Assembly (NCBI GenBank): GCA_037479115.1
Contig: JBBFLK010000002.1
Coordinates: forward strand, 148,040 to 212,039
DNA length: 64,000 bases
Direction: 5' to 3'
Origin: Anaerohalosphaeraceae bacterium
Lineage (GTDB): Bacteria > Planctomycetota > Phycisphaerae > Sedimentisphaerales > Anaerohalosphaeraceae
A model generated the notes under the pieces. That model made no database searches and had not been told where the DNA came from. It saw only the letters and a list, made by a program, of their open reading frames with translations. Shown here piece after piece: positions 35,019-61,441 of this stretch (the first letter of the stretch is position 1; the number at the start of each line of letters is the position of its first letter). The translations under genes were made by a program, and so were the position numbers.

Positions 35019-37097
35019 TCAACCCTCCCCTCTAAATCCGCCGGGCGGCGACATAGGAGGCGGAAAACCGCCCGGAGCAAAGCCGCCTGGGGTTAATCCG
35101 CCGGGTGTAAAGCCGCCGGGGGTCGGCGACATCCCCGGTTGGGATGTTCGTCCGACAAATACGTCACTCTCGGCCTCTCGTTCAGCCTCCTGAACATCGC
35201 GATAGTTTTTCCGCAGTTCCGCTGTCCAGTTCGCCTGGCGGATAGGAAGTTTTGCAAGAATCCCATCCTCCTGCGCATAAAGCATGCTCACAAACTCCCG
35301 CCGGCGCAGAGCCGTCATTGCACCCGACCAATCTACTTCTGCAATTTGGTCCAAATAGAGATACGGGGTCGTAAAATCAATTTTCTCCGGAACGGAAGCC
35401 GCCGTTGTCCCCATACCGGGGCCTTCCATAGGCATCGGAAATGCAGCGCCCATCGGAGGAGGTACCGCCCCTTCCATCCCGAACCCTGCGCCGGTTTCCG
35501 CAGAAGCGGCGGTCCTTTTGACCTCAACTTCTGAACCGATGAGTTGTCCCGGGAGTACTTCAAACTCATGACTTCTCCAGCGGCCCATATAATATTTGGA
35601 AACGCGCACGTTCACCGCAATCGGGTTGGTTCTGGAAATATCCATCGGGAAAATATGAAGTGTTTTGGGAATCGAAGCAATCAGCGGTTCATTCCTTTTG
35701 GCGACAGTTTCCGCAAACGGCGTCCATAAAACGATTTGATTCTTGAACTCCTGCTGGTCCGGCTTAAACCAGTCCCTGCCGGCAATCGGATTAAACAGGC
35801 CGACTCGAATTCGGTATTGATAGGTTTTTCCCGGCTGAACGGTGTCATCATGAGCCCAAACCAGCAAAGGTTCGGTCCGCTTCCACCAGTCATCCGTCAG
35901 CAATTCTCTCTGGTAATCCCGCCAGATGTCTTCAACCGTTCGCTGGCGTGTTCCCGGTCGAGTTGCCACGCCCGGGGCCCCCATATCCGGAGGCATCACT
36001 CCGGGGCCGCCCGGCTGAGTTCGCCCGGGCTGCGGCTGTTCCCGACCCGGCTGCGGCTGACGTCCCGGCTGGCGTCCCGGCTGCCGCGCTCCTCCGGGCC
36101 CCGGCAAGCCGCCTTCCATCCCTCCCGGAGCCGTCCGGCCCGGACCCGCTCCCGCGGCGCCGGCCGCCTGCTGCTGCGCCAATCGACGCGCTTCATCCCG
36201 CTGCTGCTGAAGCAGCTTCTGGGCTTCTTCCAGATACGGGGGCGGCATCCAATACTGATACCGCGACGTAGCAAAATCATACGGCCGCTGCTGCAGAAGT
36301 GACGCCTGACGAATGCGTTCTTTAAATTGTTCTATTTGAACAGAAACGCCGCCGCCGCTGAGCTCTTCGGTTCGGTACGGCAGCTGGTCAAACAGTTTTT
36401 TATAAGCAATCGTCTGGGGGCTCGGCACCCGCTCCCAAGGCCCCCAAGAGCCGTCCGGAAGCTGTTCTCTACGCTGCAGCTCCACTCGGGCGGCAACAGG
36501 AACCGCCAAAACCGGGTCTTTATGGGCCGGACGAACTCCCAAGCCCATAAAGGCCGATTGAAACTGCTGCACAATCCGCCGGACATCCAGCCGGGCCGAA
36601 ACCGTCACAAAATCCACATCTCCTATCTGGACGGGAACATTCTCATACGGCAGCTCCGGCGTAACCTCTTCCGTCGGAACGTAAGCGGCCGAACGGATAT
36701 AAGCCATCTGAACATCCTGCAGCGGCGGAATCTCCGGCACAGCGTATTCCCGGTCTGTTTCGATCGGCTGACGCCCAATCCCGGGCAGCATCGGGTAAAC
36801 CTGCAGATTCAGGGTCGGAACAGAGGAAGCAAGGAGCCGTTCATAGGAGGGAATAAAATCCGGCAGCGGCAGTGATACCGTCTCCGACGCCCCCTCAATT
36901 CGTTCACGAAGACGTTCCGCTTTCTGAGCCAGCTTATTCTGGGCCGAACCGGGAGATTCCTTGCGCCCATCAATCACCGGACCGAACGGATTTCGAAAAA
37001 CAAACAGCCACAGCAGCCCCAGACTCAGCAGACCGATTCCGGCAAGAATGATTTTATCCAAATGCTGCTCAAGAAGATTTTCTCGTTTTTTGCTCAT
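35019..37097 (-). CDS. Bitopic membrane protein with Pro/Gly/Gln/Met-rich low-complexity tracts (function unknown), third gene of the PilM-like cluster
   Basis: 692 aa. One N-terminal TM (IILAGIGLLSLGLLWLFVF). Central tract PGRQPGRQPQPGREQPQPGRTQPGGPG. C-terminal tract TPGGFTPGGLTPGGFAPGGFPPPMSPPGGF. Confidence 0.75.
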   Translation of the reverse strand: MSKKRENLLEQHLDKIILAGIGLLSLGLLWLFVFRNPFGPVIDGRKESPGSAQNKLAQKAERLRERIEGASETVSLPLPDFIPSYERLLASSVPTLNLQVYPMLPGIGRQPIETDREYAVPEIPPLQDVQMAYIRSAAYVPTEEVTPELPYENVPVQIGDVDFVTVSARLDVRRIVQQFQSAFMGLGVRPAHKDPVLAVPVAARVELQRREQLPDGSWGPWERVPSPQTIAYKKLFDQLPYRTEELSGGGVSVQIEQFKERIRQASLLQQRPYDFATSRYQYWMPPPYLEEAQKLLQQQRDEARRLAQQQAAGAAGAGPGRTAPGGMEGGLPGPGGARQPGRQPGRQPQPGREQPQPGRTQPGGPGVMPPDMGAPGVATRPGTRQRTVEDIWRDYQRELLTDDWWKRTEPLLVWAHDDTVQPGKTYQYRIRVGLFNPIAGRDWFKPDQQEFKNQIVLWTPFAETVAKRNEPLIASIPKTLHIFPMDISRTNPIAVNVRVSKYYMGRWRSHEFEVLPGQLIGSEVEVKRTAASAETGAGFGMEGAVPPPMGAAFPMPMEGPGMGTTAASVPEKIDFTTPYLYLDQIAEVDWSGAMTALRRREFVSMLYAQEDGILAKLPIRQANWTAELRKNYRDVQEAEREAESDVFVGRTSQPGMSPTPGGFTPGGLTPGGFAPGGFPPPMSPPGGFRGEG
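35035..35124 (-). repeat. Tandem 15-bp coding repeat (about 6 units, 4 well preserved) encoding X-P-G-G-Phi pentapeptides
   Basis: Plus-strand units are aaaccgcccggagca / aagccgcctggggtt / aatccgccgggtgta / aagccgccgggggtc (35065-35124), plus degenerate units from 35035. Confidence 0.8.
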
Positions 37098-52626: not shown

Positions 52627-53265
52627 ATGATCTTTACAAAAATCAAAATCTGCGGAATCACAAACCTGGACGATGCCTTAACCGCCGTCGAACTCGGGGC
52701 GGACCTGCTCGGGTTCATTTTCTACCCCAAAAGCCCCCGATATATTGACCCCCAAAAGGCCAGGGATATCATCGCCAAAATCCCAACCTTTGTCGACACC
52801 GTGGCCGTTTTCGTCAATCCGACCTTCCAGCAGGTCCAGGAAACCGCCCAGCAGGGCTGGTTTAATTGGGTCCAGCTGCATGGGGACGAGACCCCCGATT
52901 TCTGCCGGTCGCTCCACTGGCTCAACATCAAGCTGATGAAGGCCGTCCGGGTCAAAGACCGCTCCGATATCGACAAAGCCCTGACCTATCCGACCGATGC
53001 GGTGCTCCTGGACACCTACACCGACGGACTGTACGGCGGAACCGGACAGACCTTCGACTGGTCCCTCATCGGTTATCCGCCCCGGCGCATCTTCCTGTCC
53101 GGCGGAATCGGCCCCCACAATATCCGTCAGGCCCTCGAAGTCGGAACCTACGGCATCGACGTCAACAGCGGTGTGGAAAGCGCCCCCGGCAAAAAAGACC
53201 CTGCAAAACTCAAACAGCTTTTTGACTCCATCAGCCGTATCCACGGCGGAAAGGTCCATATATGA
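52627..53265 (+). CDS. trpF: Phosphoribosylanthranilate isomerase
   Basis: [13 protein letters not shown]...[16 protein letters not shown]..., VQLHGDE. Confidence 0.9.
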
Positions 53266-54449
53266 AATCCAAAGGACGATTCGGTCCCTTCGGCGGCTAT
53301 TATGTGCCGGAGGTGCTTATTCCGGCCCTCGAGGAAATTGAGGCCGCCTTTGAACAATTCCGGGAAGACCCGAACTTCCTGAAAGACTTAAACGCCCTCT
53401 ATACCGACTATGCAGGCCGGCCTACTCCCCTTTATCATGCCCGCCGATTCAGTGAAGAGGTCGGGTTTACAGTCTATCTGAAGCGGGAAGACCTTCTGCA
53501 CGGCGGCGCCCACAAAATCAACAACACCTTAGGACAGGGACTTCTGGCCCGCTATATGGGCAAAACCAAACTCATTGCCGAAACCGGCGCCGGCCAGCAC
53601 GGCCTGGCAACCGCCATCGTCGGAGCCCTCTTCGGAATGGAAACCAAAATCTTTATGGGCGCAACCGACGTCGCCCGCCAGAATGTCAACGTCCACAAAA
53701 TGAAACTTCTCGGCGCCGAAGTGATCCCTGTGGAAGGCGGCACCGGAACCCTCAAAGACGCCATCAACGAAGCCCTTCGATACTGGACAGCCCATGTCGA
53801 AGATACTTTTTATCTGTTTGGAACAGCCGGCGGGCCTCATCCCTACCCGACCATAGTCCGGCACTTCCAGGAACCCATCGGACGGGAGGCCCGGCAGCAA
53901 TGCCTCGAAAAAGCCGGCCGGCTCCCCGACCTTGTCACGGCCTGCGTCGGCGGCGGCTCCAACGCCATCGGCATTTTTTCGGGTTTCCTCAATGACCCGC
54001 AGGTCCAGCTGGTCGGCGTCGAAGGCGGCGGAAAAGGCCTCCACACCACCCAGCACTGCGCCACCCTCTGCACCGGCACGGTCGGCGTCCTGCACGGAGC
54101 CCGTACCTACCTGCTGCAGGATGAAAACGGACAGATTCGCGACACCGAATGCATCTCTGCCGGTCTGGACTACCCGGGCGTCGGGCCCGAACACGCCTAC
54201 CTGAAAGAAACCGGACGCGCCCGTTACGTGAGCGTCTGCGATGAGGAGGTTTTGGATACCTTTTTCCTGTTCTCCCGAATGGAAGGCATCCTGCCGGCCC
54301 TCGAAAGCACCCACGCCCTCGCCTGGCTCGTCCGGCAAAAAGGACTTCTCCCGCCGGATACCATCGCTATCGCCAACCTGTCCGGACGGGGCGACAAAGA
54401 CATCGATATCGTCGAACACCACAGACCCCTGACTGCGAGGTCCCTATGA
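53262..54449 (+). CDS. trpB: Tryptophan synthase beta chain
   Basis: [29 protein letters not shown] (PLP lysine), GGGSNAIG. Confidence 0.96.
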
Positions 54450-55267
54450 ATCCCTATCAGAGTTGCTTTTCCAAACTGAACCGGGCGGCCCTGATTCCCT
54501 TCTTCGTCATCGGCGACCCCTCGTACGACATTTCTTTACAGCTGGTCAAGGCCGCTGTGGACGCCGGCGCCGACATTCTCGAACTGGGCATCCCCTTTTC
54601 CGACCCCGTAGCCGACGGCCCTACCATCCAAAAAGCCGACCTGCGGGCCCTGAAGGCAGGCATCACACCCGCCAAAGCCCTTCAATTTATCCGGGAAATT
54701 ACGGCCTATAAACCCATCCCCATCGGCCTGCTGGTCTATTACAACCTCCTCGTCCAGTACGGAACCGAACGGTTCCTGCAGGATTTTAAAAAAGCCGGCG
54801 GCACCAGTGTCCTCGTGGCGGATTTGTCCATCGACGATGCCGATGAAATCGCCATTCCGGCCAAAAAAGCCGGGCTGGAAACCGTCTTTATGGCTACCCC
54901 CAACACCCCCGACGAACGGCTCCGACGCATCGCCGAAAAAACCACAGGGTTTATCTACACAGTCTCTCTGCTGGGAACTACCGGGGAACGCCAGGCCCTT
55001 TCCAACGCCGTCCGCCCGCTGGTAGCCCGGCTGAAACGGCTGACGGACAAGCCCGTGTGTGTCGGGTTCGGCATCAGCACCCCTCAGCACGCCTGCGAGG
55101 TTGCCCGGGCAGGCGCAGACGGAGTAATTATCGGCAGCCGAATTGTGAAATTTATTGAAGAAGCCCCCGATAACCCGGAAAAAATGCGGGAGAATATTAC
55201 ACGGTTTCTTTCGGAGGTTCGAGCCGCCCTGCCCCCCAAAGGACCGACGGCAAAAACCGACGCCTAA
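54446..55267 (+). CDS. trpA: Tryptophan synthase alpha chain
   Basis: [34 protein letters not shown]. Confidence 0.93.
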
Positions 55268-55617
55268 ACTCCGGAGGGGACGGCCTTGTCGGCCTTGCGG
55301 AACGATTCCAGCGACTGCGGCTCGGCCACTTTCCTATAGCCGAGGGCCTTAATGACTTCCAGCACCTCCGTCCAGGTCGGGAACGGACGCTGGTTGGCCC
55401 GCTTATACTGGTCGATGGCCATCAGAAACTCGAACTGCTCATCCGTCATCTGGCCTTCTTCAGCCAACCGGCGTTCTTCCGTCCGGCGATGTCCCGGACC
55501 GCGCCGCCGGTCCCACCCGCTGCGGCGGTCCACAACATTCTTGCGGCGCTCCACAAAAGTCCGACGCTCCTGAACCGTTTCTTCCTGCGGATTGTTCTCG
55601 TTTATCTTTTCCGTCAT
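55264..55617 (-). CDS. Small Arg-rich protein, function unknown
   Basis: 117 aa. The N-terminal half is [33 protein letters not shown]. The C-terminal half, [35 protein letters not shown], looks like a small helical domain. Its 3' end overlaps the trpA stop by 4 nt (convergent). Confidence 0.6.
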
Positions 55618-55662: not shown

Positions 55663-55977
55663 TTACTCATCCTGTCTGTCATCTTCCAGCCAGCAGCCGC
55701 TGCCGTGAAAGAAAACATCAAAGAAATGCTCAAACGGCGCCTGCGACGCAATCAGAGAATGGGCCTCATCGAGCACATCTTCCGGCACCAGGACCGCTAT
55801 CCCAGGCGACGCAGCCCCCTCGCTTTCGGGCTGCCGGACTACGGCGGGAATTCCGTTCTCCTCCAGCATTTTCTTATAGTGACGGGCCAAATCCATATCT
55901 TCCGCGAAGGCCACCGTCACAAATTCTCCGAGCGATGTCTTCTGAATCGGCTTATTCGGCTTTTTCGGCTCCGACAT
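55663..55977 (-). CDS. DUF2007-like small protein (putative signal-transducing fold), function unknown
   Basis: The ATG at 55977 has a GGAGCGG SD. FVTVAFAEDMDLARHYKKMLEENGIPAVV...IAVLVPEDVLDEAHSLI fits the DUF2007 pattern from memory. Confidence 0.55.
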   Translation of the reverse strand: MSEPKKPNKPIQKTSLGEFVTVAFAEDMDLARHYKKMLEENGIPAVVRQPESEGAASPGIAVLVPEDVLDEAHSLIASQAPFEHFFDVFFHGSGCWLEDDRQDE

Positions 55978-56073
55978 ATTCCGCTCCAAACACGGACAAT
56001 TCTGAGTTTTTGTCTGACTGCATCGACCCTTTCATCGACCAAGCCGCACACCCAATTAAGCACTTTCCCGCAG

Positions 56074-56098: not shown

Positions 56099-56191
56099 CG
56101 GAAGGGTCAAACGGAACAAAGCGTTCATAGGGATTTTTGCGTCTATAGGCCCTCTGGATGCAAAATTTTGCGTTTTTTCGCAAATTTTTTA

Positions 56192-56220
56192 TTGCAAAGT
56201 CGGTCAAATACAGCCACAAT
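56192..56220 (+). promoter_or_regulatory. Candidate promoter of the histone-fold gene
   Basis: TTGCAA (56192-97), 17 nt, CACAAT (56215-20). It sits in an A/T-tract region that contains the perfect palindrome GCAAAATTTTGC (56160-56171). Confidence 0.3.
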
Positions 56221-56296
56221 ACGCCAAAACGTCGTTTAGCGGCACGTGCGTGCTGCTTTTATGGGAACCAAGTAACCTTTTACACGGAGGTGCCGT

Positions 56297-56521
56297 ATGG
56301 CAAAGAAGAAAGCCGCTGCAAAGAAAGCTGCCCCGAAAGGCGGCAAGTCGGAAATGCTGGTCGTCGCCAGCAAAGTCAAGGCCTACATCAAGTCCAAAGG
56401 GATGATGACTGCCAGTGATTCGATTGCGGCCTTGAACGACAAGATTTATCAGCTGCTCGATGCGGCCGTTTGCCGCACCCAGGCAAACCGGCGCAGCACC
56501 GTCAAGCCGCAGGACCTGTAA
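56297..56521 (+). CDS. Bacterial histone-fold protein (Bdellovibrio Bd0055/HBb-like singlet) with N-terminal Lys/Ala-rich tail
   Basis: 74 aa, MAKKKAAAKKAAPKGGKS + EMLVVASKVKAYIKSKGMMTASDSIAALNDKIYQLLDAAVCRTQANRRSTVKPQDL. This gives an alpha1-L1-alpha2-L2 pattern with the RxTVxxxD motif and a truncated alpha3. Strong GGAGG SD and its own terminator. Confidence 0.7.
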   Translation: MAKKKAAAKKAAPKGGKSEMLVVASKVKAYIKSKGMMTASDSIAALNDKIYQLLDAAVCRTQANRRSTVKPQDL

Positions 56522-56577
56522 GAGTCCTGACTGCTTAGGTTCTCCATGCCGCAGGCAGTCGGCAGGCAAAGAATCAA

Positions 56578-56610
56578 AAGCCGCTTCCTCCAAAGAAGTG
56601 GCTTTTTTTT
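56578..56610 (+). terminator. Intrinsic terminator of the histone-fold gene
   Basis: Stem AAGCCGCTTC / GAAGTGGCTT (one G-U pair), loop CTCCAAA, then eight T. Confidence 0.65.
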
Positions 56611-56821
56611 GTCTGGAAACCCCTCTCCCTGTCAAGATAGATAAATTTTTCACCGCTCCATCTGTGTCCCGACATCCTGAACTTTTTTCCCCCATTTTCA
56701 GTAAATTTCATTAGGTCTTTTGCAGATTTATTTTATAATTGATTTATTGTCAGAAGGTGGTAGGATGAGATTACATCTTGAATCTTTTTGAGAAAAAATG
56801 TGTGAGTAAACGGGGTCTGAT

Positions 56822-58162
56822 ATGAAAGTGTTCATGCTTGGTTGGGAGTTTCCGCCTTACATCAGCGGGGGCTTAGGTACCGCGTGCCATGGACTGACCA
56901 AAGCGTTAAGCGATTTGGGAGTCAAAATCACGTTTGTCCTCCCGAAACCGATTGAAACAAAAACGCCCACCCATGTCCAGATGCTCACGCCTCAGCATTG
57001 CCGAGCCACCCGGACGGTCACCCAAACCGCCGAAACCACGCAGGAACTCAAGAACGTTCAGTTCCATACGGTCAGCTCCCCCCTTCAGCCGTACACGACC
57101 CCGCAGCAGTACCAAAAGCGGCTGGAGGAACTTATCCGTCAAAAGCAGCTCCTGTCGTCCCAATCACAGCAGATGCTCGACCAGTGGCTGGAGCAGGAAA
57201 TCGAAGGCCTTTCCGTCAGCCCCGGCCAGTACAGCGGCGATATGTACACCGAAGTGCACCGCTACGCCGCCGCCGCCGTTCGCCTGGCCCTCCAGCAGGA
57301 ATTCGATGTAATTCACGCACACGACTGGATGACCTATCCGGCCGGAATCGCCGTTGCCGCCGTCAGCGGAAAACCGCTGGTCGTGCACGTCCATTCCACG
57401 GAATTCGACCGCAGCGGCGAACACGTCAACCAGATGATTTACGATATTGAACGACGCGGCATCCACGCCGCCGCCAAGGTCATTGCCGTCAGCTATCTGA
57501 CCCGCAACATCCTCCTGACCCGATACGGCGCGCTCGGCGACAAAATCGAGGTCATCTACAACGGCGTAGAGCCCGAAGACAGCAACCGCGTTTCCGCGCA
57601 GCAGGTCGGTATCCGCAGTGATGAAAAAATCGTCCTGTTCCTTGGACGAATCACCATGCAGAAAGGTCCCGAATACTTTCTCATGGCCGCCCGCAAGGTC
57701 CTCGAAGAAATGGAAAACGTCAAGTTCGTCATGGCCGGAAGCGGCGATATGATGCACCGCATCATCGAAATGGCGGCCCAGATGGGTATCGGACACAAAG
57801 TCCTCTTTACAGGCTTTCTCCGGGGCGAAGACGTCAACCGGGTCTATCAGATGGCGGACCTGTATGTCATGCCGTCCGTTTCCGAACCCTTCGGAATCGC
57901 TCCCCTGGAAGCCCTCAACCACGACGTGCCCGTCATCATCAGCAAGCAAAGCGGCGTCGCCGAAGTCCTCACACACGTCCTCAAAGTGGACTTCTGGGAC
58001 ATTCAGGAAATGGCCAACAAAATTATCGCCGTCCTGAAGTATCCGCCGCTCCAGATGACCCTGCGGGAACATGGAAACTTCGAGGTGCGCAAACTCAAAT
58101 GGTCCGGAGCGGCCAAGAAATGTTTGAAGGTCTATCAGGAAGTCACCCAGGTCGCCGTCTGA
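56822..58162 (+). CDS. Glycogen-synthase-like glycosyltransferase (GT4/GT5, GT-B fold)
   Basis: MKVFMLGWEFPPYISGGLGTAC..., HAHDWMT, and a C-terminal E-x7-E-type region (PSVSEPFGIAPLEAL). Confidence 0.8.
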   Translation: MKVFMLGWEFPPYISGGLGTACHGLTKALSDLGVKITFVLPKPIETKTPTHVQMLTPQHCRATRTVTQTAETTQELKNVQFHTVSSPLQPYTTPQQYQKRLEELIRQKQLLSSQSQQMLDQWLEQEIEGLSVSPGQYSGDMYTEVHRYAAAAVRLALQQEFDVIHAHDWMTYPAGIAVAAVSGKPLVVHVHSTEFDRSGEHVNQMIYDIERRGIHAAAKVIAVSYLTRNILLTRYGALGDKIEVIYNGVEPEDSNRVSAQQVGIRSDEKIVLFLGRITMQKGPEYFLMAARKVLEEMENVKFVMAGSGDMMHRIIEMAAQMGIGHKVLFTGFLRGEDVNRVYQMADLYVMPSVSEPFGIAPLEALNHDVPVIISKQSGVAEVLTHVLKVDFWDIQEMANKIIAVLKYPPLQMTLREHGNFEVRKLKWSGAAKKCLKVYQEVTQVAV

Positions 58163-58188
58163 AACTTCATGGAAGGTGAGGGTTTCGT

Positions 58189-59403
58189 ATGCCGTCGGTT
58201 TGCTTTTATTTCCAGGTGCATCAGCCGTTTCGGCTTCGGCACTATACCGTCTTTGACAAATCCGGTAACTACTTCGACGAATTCAAAAACGCCTCCATCT
58301 GCCGCAAGGTCGCCAACAAGTGCTACCTGCCCTCCAACCGGCTTCTGCTGAAGATGATTCGCCGCTATGAAGGACGCTTTAAGGTTTCCTTCAGCATCAC
58401 CGGCGTCGTCATCGAACAATTCCAGAAATACTGCCCCGAGGTCATCAGCACCTTTGATGCTCTGGCCGAAACCGGATGCGTCGAGTTTATCGCGGAAACC
58501 TACTACCACAGTCTCAGCTTCCTTTATTCCCGCAATGAATTTTTCGAACAGATTCAAAAGCATATTGAATTGATGCAGAAACTCTGGGGCCAAACTCCCC
58601 GCATCTTCCGCAATACAGAATTGATTTACAACAACCAGCTGGCGGAAACCATCGAGTCCTTAAATCAGTTTGACGCCGTCATCACGGAGGGCGCCGACCG
58701 CATTCTCGGCCACCGCAACGCCAACTTTGTCTATCGCCCCCCCAACTGCAAGCACCTGAAGCTGCTGTTGAAAAACTACTCCCTGTCCGATGACATCGCC
58801 TTCCGCTTCAGCAACCGCGGCTGGGAGGAATGGCCGCTGGATGCCCCCAAGTTTGCCCGATGGATTGACCAGATTAACGGCTGCGGCCATACCGTCAATC
58901 TCTTTATGGACTACGAAACCTTCGGGGAACACCAGTGGGAGGACACCGGCATCTTCGACTTTATGTACCATCTGCCCGAATACATCCTCCGCCACCCCGA
59001 CAACAACTTTATGACGCCCAGCGAAGTGGTTCGCACTTATCCGGTCATGGACGTGGTCGATGTCCCCCACGTTATCAGCTGGGCCGATATGGAACGGGAC
59101 TTGTCCGCCTGGCTGGGCAACGCCATGCAGTCCAACGCCCTCCACGAAGTTTATAAAATGGAGAAACTCGTCAAGCAGACCCAGGACCCCCAGATTATTG
59201 AGGATTGGAGAAAACTGCTGACCTCCGATCATTTCTATTATATGTGCACCAAGTATTTCTCCGACGGCGATGTCCACAAATACTTCAATCCCTACGAGTC
59301 GCCGTATGATTCCTATATTAATTATATGAACGTGCTTAATCATCTGCGGGAACGCTGCAAACAGGCCCTGACTCAGCAAACCGTCTCCGAACAGGCCTCC
59401 TGA
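58189..59403 (+). CDS. GH57 family alpha-glucan-active enzyme (amylase/branching-like)
   Basis: VCFYFQVHQPFRLRHY, MDYETFGEHQW (GH57 catalytic region). Confidence 0.82.
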   Translation: MPSVCFYFQVHQPFRLRHYTVFDKSGNYFDEFKNASICRKVANKCYLPSNRLLLKMIRRYEGRFKVSFSITGVVIEQFQKYCPEVISTFDALAETGCVEFIAETYYHSLSFLYSRNEFFEQIQKHIELMQKLWGQTPRIFRNTELIYNNQLAETIESLNQFDAVITEGADRILGHRNANFVYRPPNCKHLKLLLKNYSLSDDIAFRFSNRGWEEWPLDAPKFARWIDQINGCGHTVNLFMDYETFGEHQWEDTGIFDFMYHLPEYILRHPDNNFMTPSEVVRTYPVMDVVDVPHVISWADMERDLSAWLGNAMQSNALHEVYKMEKLVKQTQDPQIIEDWRKLLTSDHFYYMCTKYFSDGDVHKYFNPYESPYDSYINYMNVLNHLRERCKQALTQQTVSEQAS

Positions 59404-59428
59404 ACGCCTGCGCGGATTAAAGAATGCA

Positions 59429-61441
59429 ATGGAACTGCACAAAGAAGCCATCCTGGCCGTCAACCTCAGCGACCTGCCGCTGGAGGAGATGCTCAGCCGG
59501 GAATGGCTCTTGACCAACAGCCGCGGGGGTTTTGCCTTTTCCACGCTGGCCGGCTGCAATACCCGACGCTATCACGGCCTGCTCATCGGAACTCCCCATC
59601 CTCCCGCCGCCCGGTTTCTCGGCCTGGCCGCCTGCCTGGAAAAAATCTCTCTCGAAGAAGATTCGCTGGAATTCAGCTGTTTTGAATTCGACCGAACCTT
59701 CCACCCGAAAGGTTACGAACATCTGACCGCCTTCTCCCGCGATATCGGCGTCCACTTCGAATATGAACTCGGTCTGGCCCGATGCACCAAATCCGTTTAT
59801 CTGCACCCCACCGAAGACATCGTCGCCGTCGAGTACGCCTTCAGCCATCTGGTCCGCCCATTCACTTTTTCTCTGCTGCCGCTGGCGGCCATGCGGGATT
59901 TTCACGGCCTCCAAAACGCCGCCCGCCCCATAACCGCTGAAACAAAAAGGCCTCACGCCGTCTGCATTACCGGCCCCTCTGAAGACGACCTTCAGCTGCA
60001 TCTCGTCGTCTCATCAATGACCTTCCGGCCGGCCCCCCATTGGTGGTACCGCTTTTACTACCGCATCGAGGCCCAGCGGGGACAGGACTGTTTCGAGGAC
60101 CTCTGGGCCCCCGGCTGGTACTCCTGCCGCATCGAACAGCCCGGCTCAGTCATTCTGTGGGCCGCCCTGAAGCCTGCCGGTTCCTCCTTCGAACCGCCGG
60201 ACTTTCACCAAATGCTCAAAGACCTCGCCAATCGCCAAAAAGACCTCTGCCGCAGCGCCTTCTCGCGAGACCCCATTCAAAAGGCCCTGTTTATCTCTGC
60301 GGGGCAATTCGTGGTCGAACGAACCATTCAGGGACGCACAAGCCCGACTATCCTGGCCGGCTATCCCTGGTTTCTCGACTGGGGACGGGATGCCTTCATT
60401 GCCCTGCCGGGTCTTTGCCTGAGCACGGGCCGTACCGACACGGCCGCCGGCGTTCTGCAGACCTTTGCCGAGGCCGTCAGCGAAGGAATGATTCCCAACC
60501 GCTTTGACGATTACGGCGGACCGGCCCATTACAACAGCATCGACGCCTCGCTCTGGTTTGTCGAAGCCGCCTACCAATGGCTCCAACAAACGCAGAACCA
60601 ATCCTTTTTCGAAAAAAATCTTCTGCCCGCCGTTCTGCAAATCCTCAGCGGATACCAGGAAGGGACCCGTTTCGGCATCCACGCCGACGCCGACGGTCTT
60701 ATCACCGGCGGCGACCCGCAGACGCAGCTGACCTGGATGGATGCCAAATGCGGCGATGTGGTCTTTACCCCTCGATACGGCAAGGCCGTGGAAATCAACG
60801 CCCTCTGGTATGACATCCTCTGCCGCACAGCCGACTACTTCCAAAACCGAAACCGCTCCAAGGCCGAGTTTTTCGCTGCTCGCGCAGAACTGGTCAAACA
60901 GAATTTCAGCCGGCTTTTCTGGAATGAACACACCGGCTGCCTGAATGACTGCATCCTCCCCGACGGCACCCCCGACCCGTCCATCCGTCCCAATCAGATT
61001 TTCGCCGTCTCCCTCCTTCACAGCCCCTTGTCGCCCAACCGCCAGAAACGCGTGGTTCAAATTGTCCAGCAGGAATTGCTGACCCCCTACGGCCTTCGGA
61101 CCCTTAGCCCGCGCGACCCCCGGTACATCGGACGCTATGAAGGAGATATGTTCCGCCGCGATGCCGCTTATCATCAGGGAACCGTCTGGCCTTGGCTGAT
61201 GGGGGCTTTTCTGGAGGCCTTTCTGAAAGTCCACAACAACAGTCCGCAGGCCCGCAAGCAGACCGCCGCCATGCTTTCTCCTTTGATTCATCATTTTGCC
61301 AACCACGCCTGTCTGGGCAGCATTTCGGAAATCTTCGATGGGGACGCACCGCACTATCCACGCGGATGTCCCGCCCAGGCCTGGAGTGTGGCGGAAGTCC
61401 TGCGTATCTGGCTGCTCCTTCAGCAGGCCGCTTCGTCCTGA
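59429..61441 (+). CDS. Amylo-alpha-1,6-glucosidase / glycogen debranching enzyme (GDE_N + GDE_C, archaeal type)
   Basis: EWLLTNSRGGFAFSTLAGCNTRRYHGLL, GYPWFLDWGRDAFIAL, AQAWSVAEVLR. Confidence 0.85.
   Translation: MELHKEAILAVNLSDLPLEEMLSREWLLTNSRGGFAFSTLAGCNTRRYHGLLIGTPHPPAARFLGLAACLEKISLEEDSLEFSCFEFDRTFHPKGYEHLTAFSRDIGVHFEYELGLARCTKSVYLHPTEDIVAVEYAFSHLVRPFTFSLLPLAAMRDFHGLQNAARPITAETKRPHAVCITGPSEDDLQLHLVVSSMTFRPAPHWWYRFYYRIEAQRGQDCFEDLWAPGWYSCRIEQPGSVILWAALKPAGSSFEPPDFHQMLKDLANRQKDLCRSAFSRDPIQKALFISAGQFVVERTIQGRTSPTILAGYPWFLDWGRDAFIALPGLCLSTGRTDTAAGVLQTFAEAVSEGMIPNRFDDYGGPAHYNSIDASLWFVEAAYQWLQQTQNQSFFEKNLLPAVLQILSGYQEGTRFGIHADADGLITGGDPQTQLTWMDAKCGDVVFTPRYGKAVEINALWYDILCRTADYFQNRNRSKAEFFAARAELVKQNFSRLFWNEHTGCLNDCILPDGTPDPSIRPNQIFAVSLLHSPLSPNRQKRVVQIVQQELLTPYGLRTLSPRDPRYIGRYEGDMFRRDAAYHQGTVWPWLMGAFLEAFLKVHNNSPQARKQTAAMLSPLIHHFANHACLGSISEIFDGDAPHYPRGCPAQAWSVAEVLRIWLLLQQAASS

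What the first reader, a model, noticed from the sequence alone, without database searches (positions are those of the whole stretch)
56297..56521. Monocistronic bacterial histone-fold gene carrying a eukaryote/H1-like Lys/Ala-rich N-terminal tail
Seen in the sequence: the 74-aa ORF has a strong GGAGG SD, a promoter-like TTGCAA-17-CACAAT and its own terminator, which is consistent with high expression.

Residues 19-74 (EMLVVASKVKAYIKSKGMMTASDSIAALNDKIYQLLDAAVCRTQANRRSTVKPQDL) fit a helix-loop-long helix-loop layout. They include the histone L2/alpha3 signature R-x-T-V-x-x-x-D and a truncated alpha3. From memory, they resemble the Bdellovibrio histone Bd0055 (..LVVTSKVKK.IK.KG.MNTS......GRKTV...D), which coats DNA in an unconventional mode.

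The N-terminal 18 residues (MAKKKAAAKKAAPKGGKS) form a Lys/Ala tail. I do not recall such a tail in Bd0055. It resembles H1/Hc1/actinobacterial-HU tails.

Inference: this may be a tailed bacterial histone and possibly a major nucleoid protein in this organism.
Basis: partly seen in the sequence, partly recalled or inferred. Interest (0 to 1): 0.8.

Follow-up and report, generated by a model that had tools for sequence, protein, structure and literature searches.

The report
Lysine-tailed bacterial histone, HLp-type, Planctomycetota
This small gene is a real bacterial histone with a lysine/alanine-rich N-terminal tail, but it belongs to the already described "face-to-face" histone family of Planctomycetota, where such positively charged tails are common, so it is a good example rather than a new kind of protein.

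Summary
The 74-aa ORF (56297-56521, +) is real. It has a 7-nt Shine-Dalgarno, a promoter conserved across related genomes, and a strong terminator.

Pfam and NCBIfam give no hit. The sequence nevertheless matches solved bacterial histones: HLp of Leptospira perolatii (9QT0, E=7e-18; family profile 6e-27) far better than Bd0055/HBb (2e-5; 3e-9).

It carries the face-to-face (FtF) signature that Bd0055-type histones lack: R60, N64, R66, T68 and D73, all invariant in the clade. The best reading is therefore an HLp-like histone predicted to form tetramers and wrap DNA, not a Bd0055-like DNA coater.

The 18-residue tail (7 K, 6 A) is translated and predicted disordered. Among relatives its length ranges from about 4 to 40 residues.

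Schwab et al. 2024 already reported FtF histones in Planctomycetota and stated that bacterial FtF histones commonly carry positively charged N-terminal tails. I found no experimental study of a planctomycete member or of any such tail.

Orthologs occur in at least 362 species-level genomes. In the best-matching loci (mostly Phycisphaerae/Sedimentisphaerales) the gene sits in conserved synteny.

Verdict: observation confirmed, interpretation partly right, new member of a known kind. High abundance and tetramer formation remain untested.

The parts
56159..56184 (+). Conserved A/T-rich palindromic region upstream of the -35. It contains TGCAAAATTTTGCG, which overlaps the inverted repeat TTTGCG-TTTTTT-CGCAAA. 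It may be an UP-element or operator, or part of the divergent promoter region.
   Evidence: Nearly invariant columns in the 12-locus alignment, consensus TGCAAAATTTTGCA. The terminator scan flagged the inverted repeat on both strands. Its function is not tested.
56192..56220 (+). Promoter: -35 TTGCAA (56192-56197), 17-nt spacer, -10 CACAAT (56215-56220), preceded by a T-tract.
   Evidence: Sequence. TTGCAA is invariant in 12 loci. Of 33 loci matching the pattern, 32 have a 17-nt spacer. It falls below the generic consensus-scan threshold.
56238..56257 (+). 5' UTR stem-loop, AGCGGCAC-GTGC-GTGCTGCT, 8 bp.
   Evidence: RNAfold gives -12.6 kcal/mol. A hairpin sits at the same place in most of 24 orthologous leaders, with different stem sequences (alignments). 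The statistics are modest: median z = -1.36. No Rfam family matches.
56259..56268 (+). Conserved leader box TTATGGGAAC (consensus TTATnGGAAC), function unknown.
   Evidence: Invariant or nearly invariant columns.
56287..56293 (+). Extended Shine-Dalgarno GGAGGTG, ending 3 nt before the ATG.
   Evidence: Sequence. The GGAGG core is conserved upstream of the start in nearly all loci.
56297..56350 (+). Codons 1-18: the Lys/Ala-rich N-terminal tail MAKKKAAAKKAAPKGGKS (net +7), predicted disordered.
   Evidence: pLDDT is about 48-53 and there is no secondary structure over residues 1-16. All 120 closest homologues carry a tail of 12-28 aa, nearly all starting MAKK (a few gene calls have extra upstream residues); median length 18, median K+A fraction 0.79. 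Length varies by in-frame indels.
56351..56521 (+). Codons 19-74 plus stop: the histone fold. Alpha1 is about residues 17-33, L1 34-38, alpha2 39-64, L2 65-70, and alpha3 is a single turn at 71-74. It carries the FtF signature R60/N64/R66/T68/D73.
   Evidence: phmmer against PDB: 9QT0 (HLp) 6.9e-18, 8CMP (HBb) 2.3e-5, 9F2C (HTkC) 0.054. Family profile: 6.2e-27, 2.7e-9 and 2.5e-6. AF2 secondary structure. Invariant columns. Residue map.
56527..56562 (+). First 3' UTR hairpin.
   Evidence: RNA fold of 56522-56625: -43.6 kcal/mol, z = -5.18, and none of 200 shuffles folds as well.
56576..56614 (+). Intrinsic terminator: 12-bp stem followed by T8.
   Evidence: Terminator scan and fold. A hairpin plus T-run follows the gene in 44 of 80 related loci, with different sequences.

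Best explanation
The gene encodes a face-to-face (FtF) type bacterial histone. It is the Phycisphaerae/Sedimentisphaerales (Planctomycetota) counterpart of Leptospira HLp.

Inferred mechanism, by homology to HLp:
- Two monomers form a histone-fold dimer through their crossed alpha2 helices.
- Two dimers close into a ring-shaped tetramer through the C-terminal end of alpha2, loop L2 and the one-turn alpha3. The residues involved are R60, N64 and R66 against Q72 and L74 of the opposing dimer.
- DNA is bound non-specifically on the outer rim and wrapped around it. The DNA contacts are A24-S25-K26, K28, K32, T38 and S67-T68.

Inferred role of the tail: each monomer adds an 18-residue disordered Lys/Ala tail that starts a few residues before the 'paired ends of helices' DNA contact (A24-S25-K26). 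A tetramer therefore carries four tails and about +28 extra charge next to the DNA. The tails most likely raise affinity and neutralise charge, and may bridge neighbouring DNA segments, as the K/A-rich tails of H1, Hc1 and mycobacterial HupB do.

The gene is an independent unit with a conserved promoter, structured leader, strong SD and terminator. This is consistent with, but does not prove, high constitutive expression as a nucleoid-organising protein.

Shown: gene reality, family membership by sequence, signature residues, tail conservation and disorder, and conservation of the regulatory signals.

Inferred: tetramer formation, DNA wrapping, tail function and abundance.
For: - Sequence: HLp (9QT0/1/2) E=6.9e-18 with the single sequence and 6.2e-27, 96.9 bits, with the family profile. 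HBb scores 40.3 bits and the archaeal FtF histone HTkC 30.8 bits.
- Signature: the FtF profile positions 48/52/54/56/61 (R, N, R, T, D; PMC11390915) map with identical spacing onto R60/N64/R66/T68/D73. All five are invariant in 27 clade members. R-x-x-x-N-x-R-x-T is present in 85 of 92 complete singlet representatives at 50% clustering.
- HLp residue map: 7 of 9 DNA-contact residues are identical. [quoted passage not shown] Both RD-clamp residues are identical.
- The HTkC R45A mutant, which changes the arginine I equate by family alignment with R60 here, is reported to behave like the dimer histone HBb (bioRxiv 10.64898/2025.12.06.692711). This makes that arginine diagnostic.
- Fold: AF2 gives helices 17-33 and 39-64 plus a turn at 71-73, with a disordered N-terminus. 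This matches the published description of HLp.
- HLp is a tetramer in solution and in crystals, and its DNA complexes indicate wrapping.
- Tail: conserved composition and the start MAKK across 120 close homologues, the SD placed directly upstream, and in-frame length variation.
- Genomic setting: chromosomal, with conserved synteny in about 65 of 83 loci, a conserved promoter and leader, and terminators.
Against: - No multimer prediction or experiment was possible, so the tetramer is inferred from residues only.
- Three of the six HLp interface positions differ: S52->A63, T61->Q72, F63->L74. Q72 is invariant and L74 nearly invariant in this clade, so the interface geometry could differ.
- Foldseek found no PDB match for the monomer model. 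The model is of only moderate confidence (mean pLDDT 70.8).
- Pfam and NCBIfam give no histone hit.
- No expression or abundance data were available. No HU or other nucleoid protein was detected in the 64-kb window, but that covers only a small part of a genome.
- The role of the tail is entirely inferential. The HLp work did not address tails: its N-terminal 6-7 residues were simply not resolved.
Confidence: 0.72

Rival explanations
1. It is a Bd0055/HBb-like 'bacterial dimer' histone. It would stay dimeric and bend DNA or coat it end-on rather than wrap it.
For: There is significant similarity to HBb (E=2.3e-5; 25/55 identical core residues). Both have the truncated alpha3 and the alpha1 lysines. 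Three of the six HLp tetramer-interface positions are substituted.
Against: HLp scores far higher: 96.9 against 40.3 bits. R60 and N64, which the dimer class is characterised as lacking, are present and invariant, whereas HBb has S and D there. L2 reads R-S-T, not the R-K-T described for bacterial dimers.
Confidence: 0.15
2. It is an FtF histone but not the main nucleoid protein. It would be a lower-abundance or condition-specific DNA-binding factor, with HU or another protein doing the bulk of DNA packaging.
For: Not all FtF histones are dominant. HTkC transcript levels are 34-fold below those of HTkA. Some related genomes carry a second paralogue (L028 and L058 come from one assembly). The structured leader could mean regulated rather than constitutive expression.
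Against: The gene persists in at least 362 species-level genomes. Its promoter, 7-nt SD and terminator are conserved. [quoted passage not shown]
Confidence: 0.25
3. The tail is an annotation artefact. Translation would start at the internal Met20, giving a tail-less histone of about 55 aa.
For: An in-frame ATG lies at codon 20. For HLp, the longer annotated N-terminus was judged wrong on the basis of SD position.
Against: Here the SD argument points the other way. GGAGGTG ends 3 nt before ATG 56297, and none of the SD cores searched for (GGAG, GAGG, AGGA) occurs in the 18 nt before codon 20. All 120 close homologues keep an in-frame K/A-rich tail, nearly all starting MAKK, with indels in multiples of three. 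Many homologues have V, I or P instead of M at position 20. Short-tail orthologues start at the same SD-proximal ATG.
Confidence: 0.02

Closest known systems
HLp, the face-to-face (FtF) histone of Leptospira perolatii (PDB 9QT0, 9QT1, 9QT2; Nat Commun 2025, PMC12701072)
   Same: It is the best match by sequence (E=6.9e-18 with the single sequence, 6.2e-27 with the profile; 32/55 identical core residues). The helix layout is the same, including the one-turn alpha3. The RD clamp is identical, as are the tetramer residues R49/N53/R55 (here R60/N64/R66) and 7 of 9 DNA-contact residues.
   Different: HLp has only about 7 disordered N-terminal residues, against an 18-residue K/A tail here. Interface positions S52, T61 and F63 are A63, Q72 and L74 here. 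The genomic neighbourhood differs: SMC, MAP and DUF350 in Leptospira, against DUF2007 and orf117 upstream and glycogen-type genes downstream here. The phylum also differs.
Tailed bacterial FtF histones surveyed by Schwab et al. 2024 (PMC11390915), for example D0LYZ1 of Haliangium ochraceum and E1WYC3 of Halobacteriovorax marinus
   Same: They belong to the same family. The paper lists Planctomycetota among the FtF phyla. N-terminal tails are described as common and mostly positively charged. Published bacterial lengths of 51-127 aa bracket this 74-aa protein.
   Different: That survey found no tail sequence conserved across bacteria. Within this planctomycete clade the tail has a recognisable form, MAKKKAAKK... 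with K+A around 0.8, and in some relatives it contains PAKKA-type repeats. I did not compare directly with D0LYZ1 or E1WYC3.
Bd0055 / HBb of Bdellovibrio bacteriovorus, 'bacterial dimer' histone (PDB 8CMP, 8FVX)
   Same: It is a homologous alpha3-truncated histone fold with the same alpha1 motif (LVV-SKVK) and the same R-x-T-V-x-x-x-D.
   Different: HBb lacks the tetramerisation R and N, having S and D instead. It is dimeric and bends or coats DNA. It has essentially no tail. Its similarity is much weaker (40 against 97 bits).
HTkC, the archaeal FtF histone of Thermococcus kodakarensis (PDB 9F2C)
   Same: It belongs to the same FtF class and is detected with the family profile (E=2.5e-6). It has the same conserved arginine that controls tetramer behaviour.
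   Different: It is archaeal and tail-less at about 59 aa. It is reported to form different higher-order complexes from HLp.
Lys/Ala-rich DNA-condensing tails of linker histone H1, chlamydial Hc1 and the mycobacterial HupB/MDP1 C-terminal region
   Same: The composition and the presumed physics are the same: disordered K/A (and P) repeats that neutralise DNA charge. This rests on established knowledge; for MDP1 I saw only the abstract of PMC5974015 listed. Some relatives carry perfect PAKKA or KKAAPA repeats (P0155, L064).
   Different: There is no detectable homology: no Pfam hit to the H1, Hc1/Hc2 or HU families. Here the tail is N-terminal and fused to a histone fold rather than to a winged-helix or HU fold. 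The resemblance is compositional only.

Membership tests
Bacterial face-to-face (FtF) alpha3-truncated histones (Schwab 2024; HLp) | Histone fold with alpha1, L1, long alpha2, L2 and an alpha3 reduced to about one turn | tested here: met
   The AF2 model has helices at 17-33 and 39-64 and a turn at 71-73. There is a gap-free alignment to the HLp crystal sequence. Foldseek gave no hits, so there is no independent 3-D match.
Bacterial face-to-face (FtF) alpha3-truncated histones (Schwab 2024; HLp) | Conserved dimer-dimer residues R48 and N52 of the FtF profile (R49 and N53 in HLp) | tested here: met
   R60 and N64 sit at the right spacing and are invariant in 27 clade members. The definition is from PMC11390915 and PMC12701072.
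Bacterial face-to-face (FtF) alpha3-truncated histones (Schwab 2024; HLp) | RxTxxxxD motif / RD clamp in L2-alpha3 | tested here: met
   R66, T68 and D73 are invariant and map to HLp R55 and D62.
Bacterial face-to-face (FtF) alpha3-truncated histones (Schwab 2024; HLp) | Conserved solvent-exposed lysines on alpha1 (profile K16, also positions 12, 14 and 20) | tested here: met
   K28 corresponds to profile position 16, and K26 and K32 to positions 14 and 20. All are nearly or fully invariant. They equal the HLp DNA-contact residues K15, K17 and K21.
Bacterial face-to-face (FtF) alpha3-truncated histones (Schwab 2024; HLp) | Groups by sequence with bacterial FtF histones rather than with bacterial dimers | tested here: met
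   Profile against PDB: HLp 96.9 bits, HBb 40.3, HTkC 30.8.
Bacterial face-to-face (FtF) alpha3-truncated histones (Schwab 2024; HLp) | Torus-shaped homotetramer, predicted or solved. This is the formal definition of the class. | not testable with these tools
   Only monomer prediction was available. Three of the six HLp interface residues are substituted, so this still needs testing.
Bacterial face-to-face (FtF) alpha3-truncated histones (Schwab 2024; HLp) | Wraps DNA around the tetramer | not testable with these tools
   This needs biochemistry. It is inferred from HLp.
Bacterial dimer histones (Bd0055/HBb type) | Lack of the FtF residues R48 and N52, with no oligomer larger than a dimer | tested here: not met
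   R60 and N64 are present, whereas HBb has S and D at these positions.
Bacterial dimer histones (Bd0055/HBb type) | RKTxxxD motif with lysine after the arginine | tested here: not met
   Here the motif reads R66-S67-T68, and S67 is invariant in the clade.
Pfam CBFD_NFYB_HMF (PF00808) / DUF1931 (PF09123) histone-fold families | Score above the Pfam gathering threshold | tested here: not met
   hmmscan at E<=10 returned only two sub-threshold unrelated families, and NCBIfam returned none. This is a coverage gap in the profiles. The homologues carry no precomputed Pfam domain either.
Linker-histone / Hc1 / HU-C-terminal K/A-rich DNA-condensing domains | Detectable homology of the tail to these families | tested here: not met
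   There is no Pfam hit. The resemblance is compositional only, with a K+A fraction of 0.72.

The most novel reading that the evidence does not exclude
The Lys/Ala tail may be a functional module rather than a passive charge patch. It could act as an H1-like or HupB-like DNA-bridging and condensing arm attached to a wrapping histone tetramer. Its length would be tuned by repeat slippage: about 4 to 40 residues among orthologues and paralogues, including PAKKA-repeat and Cys-containing variants. Its lysines could also be modified, for example by acetylation, which would give these bacteria a primitive tail-based form of chromatin regulation evolved independently of eukaryotes and Asgard archaea. 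Some genomes carry a syntenic 'core' copy plus a non-syntenic copy with a different tail, which would then amount to histone variants.
Probability: 0.25. Interest if true: 0.65.

Novelty: new member of a known kind. Interest (0 to 1): 0.3.

Why it matters
Bacterial histones are a young field. Only HBb and HLp have been characterised structurally, and no tailed bacterial histone or planctomycete histone has been studied experimentally in the literature I could search.

This locus is a clean, typical example of the large Phycisphaerae/Sedimentisphaerales branch of FtF histones. It has an unambiguous start site, an 18-residue K/A tail, and strongly conserved expression signals. A cultured relative exists (Anaerohalosphaeraceae bacterium U12dextr, L079).

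It would be a good candidate for asking what a basic tail adds to a wrapping bacterial histone. It also shows that current Pfam and NCBIfam models miss this whole branch: the source names I saw for its members are 'hypothetical protein' or, in one case, an evident misannotation.

It does not change the current picture of bacterial chromatin.

Tried and rejected
- Pfam and NCBIfam scans of the protein gave no histone family. I rejected this as evidence against the fold, because the sequence matches to solved histones are strong.
- A Foldseek search of the AF2 monomer against PDB gave 0 hits. This is uninformative for a 74-residue, two-helix, non-globular monomer. I could not run a multimer prediction.
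- The generic sigma-70 scan found 0 promoters. Conservation across related loci superseded this.
- Rfam gave no hit on the leader and 3' UTR (sub-threshold noise only) or on the whole window. The window has no tRNAs.
- I considered Bd0055-type membership and rejected it on the R/N signature and the scores.
- I considered an internal start at Met20 and rejected it.
- I looked for a second histone copy or an HU gene in the window by tblastn and found none.
- I looked for a known family or structure for the conserved divergent neighbour orf117 and found none.
- I considered a functional link to the downstream glycogen-type genes (GT4/5, GH57, GDE). Synteny is conserved, but a terminator separates them and I see no mechanistic rationale. 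I treat it as clade-level synteny only.
- I considered reading the leader hairpin plus U-run as an attenuator, or the GGA motifs as CsrA sites. This is speculation and was not tested.

Full report
**Observation.**
The window contains the ORF exactly as described: 56297-56521, + strand, ATG start, 74 aa, MAKKKAAAKKAAPKGGKSEMLVVASKVKAYIKSKGMMTASDSIAALNDKIYQLLDAAVCRTQANRRSTVKPQDL.
GGAGGTG (56287-56293) is a 7-nt match to the anti-SD and ends 3 nt before the ATG.
- The proposed promoter, TTGCAA (56192-56197), 17 nt, CACAAT (56215-56220), is present. It matches only 8 of 12 consensus positions, so the generic scan did not report it.
- A 12-bp stem plus T8 terminator lies at 56576-56614. With a second hairpin at 56527-56562, the 3' UTR folds at -43.6 kcal/mol, z = -5.18.
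- The upstream neighbours are on the opposite strand. The next + strand gene starts 300 nt downstream, after the terminator. The monocistronic reading is therefore sound.

**Is it a histone?**
Pfam and NCBIfam give no histone-fold or DUF1931 hit. However, phmmer against all PDB sequences finds only four distinct sequences at E<=10, all prokaryotic histones:
- HLp of Leptospira perolatii (9QT0/1/2): E=6.9e-18.
- Bd0055/HBb (8CMP, 8FVX), two entries: 2.3e-5 and 5e-5.
- HTkC (9F2C): 0.054.

A profile of 27 clade members sharpens these values to 6.2e-27, 2.7e-9 and 2.5e-6. An AlphaFold2 monomer model has mean pLDDT 70.8. It shows a disordered N-terminus, helices at 17-33 and 39-64, and a single turn at 71-73. 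This is the layout published for HLp, whose alpha3 is truncated to the final four residues. Foldseek returned no PDB match for this tiny non-globular monomer, so there is no independent 3-D confirmation.

**Which kind of histone?**
The literature separates two bacterial classes of alpha3-truncated histones.
- 'Bacterial dimers' (Bd0055/HBb) lack profile residues R48 and N52.
- 'Face-to-face' (FtF) histones use these residues to close two dimers into a torus-shaped tetramer (PMC11390915). HLp is the solved bacterial example. It is a tetramer in solution and in crystals, and its DNA complexes indicate wrapping (PMC12701072).

The window protein carries the complete FtF signature with exact spacing: R60, N64, R66, T68, D73. 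All five are invariant in the clade alignment. Mapping onto HLp with an offset of +11 gives the following:
- The tetramer residues R49, N53 and R55 are identical here. HBb has S and D at the first two positions.
- Both RD-clamp residues are identical.
- 7 of 9 DNA-contact residues are identical (A24, S25, K26, K28, K32, T38, T68).
- The hydrophobic dimer core is identical or conservatively substituted.
- Three interface positions differ: S52->A63, T61->Q72, F63->L74.

In the archaeal FtF histone HTkC, mutating R45 is reported to produce HBb-like behaviour. I equate that arginine with R60 here by family alignment. The protein should therefore be filed with HLp, and the expected mode is tetramer wrapping, not the Bd0055 filament or bending mode. 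Tetramer formation itself could not be tested with the available tools.

**The tail.**
Residues 1-18 have 7 K and 6 A and a net charge of +7. They raise the protein's net charge from +4 to +11.
- The tail is translated. The SD sits directly upstream. All 120 closest homologues carry a tail of 12-28 residues, nearly all beginning MAKK (a few gene calls have extra upstream residues); median length 18, median K+A fraction 0.79. Length differences are in-frame. Position 20 is often not Met in the homologues.
- Across 80 related genomic loci the tail ranges from about 4 residues (MAKKKES...) to about 40 ([40 protein letters not shown]).
- Among diverse family representatives clustered at 50% identity, 42 of 78 complete singlets have a tail of at least 10 residues with net charge at least +4. 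These include perfect PAKKA repeats.

This is already in the literature. [quoted passage not shown] Their length data (51-127 aa against about 55 aa without a tail) bracket this protein, and they compared two such tails with the H3 tail. The tail has no detectable homology to H1, Hc1 or HU tails. The resemblance is compositional.

**Distribution and context.**
- Relatives are encoded in at least 362 species-representative genomes. Nearly all of the best 80 are labelled Planctomycetota, Phycisphaerae, Sedimentisphaerales or Anaerohalosphaeraceae; several MAGs carry a Pirellulales label and a few carry other labels.
- The window is nearly identical to a Phycisphaerae MAG contig, CALEDR010000028.1, where the protein is 99% identical.
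- Synteny is conserved in about 65 of 83 loci: orf117 and DUF2007 on the opposite strand, then the histone gene, then GT4/5 glycosyltransferase, GH57 and a glycogen-debranching-type enzyme.
- Some loci fall outside this synteny and carry different, sometimes Cys-containing, tails. One assembly has both kinds (L028 and L058), which indicates paralogous variants.

**Regulatory region.**
The 12-locus alignment shows an invariant TTGCAA preceded by a T-tract, a CAnAAT -10 at a fixed 17-nt spacing, and an upstream TGCAAAATTTTGCA palindrome. Among the 33 loci that match the pattern, 32 have the 17-nt spacer.

The leader of about 70-76 nt contains three elements:
- a hairpin whose stem sequence changes between loci while pairing is kept (window 56238-56257, -12.6 kcal/mol);
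- a conserved TTATnGGAAC box;
- the extended SD.

The statistical support for the hairpin is modest (median z = -1.36), and no Rfam family matches. These features fit a strongly and perhaps post-transcriptionally controlled gene. They are not evidence of abundance.

**Mechanism proposed.**
Homodimers would form via crossed alpha2 helices, and two dimers would close into a torus via R60, N64 and R66 against Q72 and L74. About 50-60 bp of DNA would be wrapped on the basic rim. That figure is the footprint Schwab et al. proposed for FtF histones from Haloferax data; it has not been measured for HLp or for this protein. Four disordered K/A tails emerge next to the alpha1 N-terminal DNA contacts (A24-S25-K26). 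They would add about +28 charge per tetramer, increasing affinity and charge neutralisation and possibly bridging DNA. The steps from 'tetramer' onward are inference from HLp and from general knowledge of basic tails.

**Novelty and score.**
The gene is real and the histone call is right, but the family, its presence in Planctomycetota and its positively charged tails are all published. No planctomycete member and no bacterial histone tail has been characterised experimentally in the literature I could search. That leaves room for the more interesting reading, in which tails act as tunable or modifiable chromatin modules and paralogues act as histone variants. I rate that reading at about 0.25. 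Overall this is a new member of a known kind, interest about 0.3.

Noticed in passing
window 56159-56293; loci L004-L083 upstream of the histone start: The non-coding leader is highly conserved: T-tract, TTGCAA, 17 nt, CAnAAT, then a 5' UTR of about 70-76 nt. The UTR contains a hairpin whose stem sequence varies while pairing is kept, a TTATnGGAAC box and an extended SD. Upstream lies a TGCAAAATTTTGCA palindrome. In distant short-tail orthologues the hairpin loop shows AAGGAUU, which resembles a CsrA site (speculative). There is no Rfam match.
   Followed up: partly
window 55264-55617 (-), orf117: A 117-aa protein with an Arg-rich N-terminal half (ERR/DRR repeats) and a conserved C-terminal segment ([41 protein letters not shown]). 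It has no Pfam, NCBIfam or significant PDB match. It is found next to the histone gene, in the same arrangement as in the window, in 67 of 83 loci at 45-100% identity (mostly 62-89% outside the window's own near-identical contigs). A functional link is unknown.
   Followed up: partly
window 55663-55989 (-), DUF2007 protein: A small DUF2007 protein ('putative prokaryotic signal transducing protein', 26.8 bits against a cut-off of 25.7) lies immediately divergent from the histone promoter. It is co-conserved with orf117 in 68 of 83 loci.
   Followed up: partly
loci L047, L058, L062, L064, L065, L067 (outside the conserved synteny): These look like paralogous histone variants with different tails. 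Some have longer PAKKAA-repeat tails of up to about 40 residues. Others have Cys pairs just before the fold (…KCSCKEV, …KCECKEV, …[12 protein letters not shown]). One assembly (CAXXSL01) has both a syntenic and a non-syntenic copy.
   Followed up: partly
representative proteins P0134, P0183, P0185, P0255, P0262: These are FtF-like histone folds, mostly doublets, with hydrophobic N-termini that resemble signal peptides (for example MRHLAISLALVLFASATSFAAGAQRKPK). That would be odd for a DNA-binding protein.
   Followed up: no
representative proteins P0128 (2240 aa), P0133 (3501 aa), P0158 (2429 aa, 12 matched stretches): Giant proteins score E of about 1e-11 to 1e-14 against the 74-aa query. In P0158 twelve stretches matched, the best one to query residues 12-45 (tail plus alpha1). 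This is probably low-complexity or repeat matching, but I did not examine it.
   Followed up: no
protein P0110: One close homologue is named 'sulfur transfer complex TusBCD TusB component (DsrH family)' by JGI, which is evidently a misannotation. All other source names I saw for the family are 'hypothetical protein', and no Pfam domain is precomputed for any of the 120 listed members.
   Followed up: no
window 35064-35123 and 36012-36083: Short GC-rich tandem repeats, with periods of 15, 21 and 12 and 2.3-4 copies, presumably inside coding sequence. I did not examine them.
   Followed up: no
window 52627-55267 and 56822-61441: The flanking genes are ordinary metabolism. trpF, trpB and trpA lie upstream. 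A glycogen/starch-synthase-like GT4/5, a GH57 enzyme and an amylo-alpha-1,6-glucosidase-type (GDE) enzyme lie downstream. The GT-GH57-GDE block stays linked to the histone gene across the clade.
   Followed up: partly
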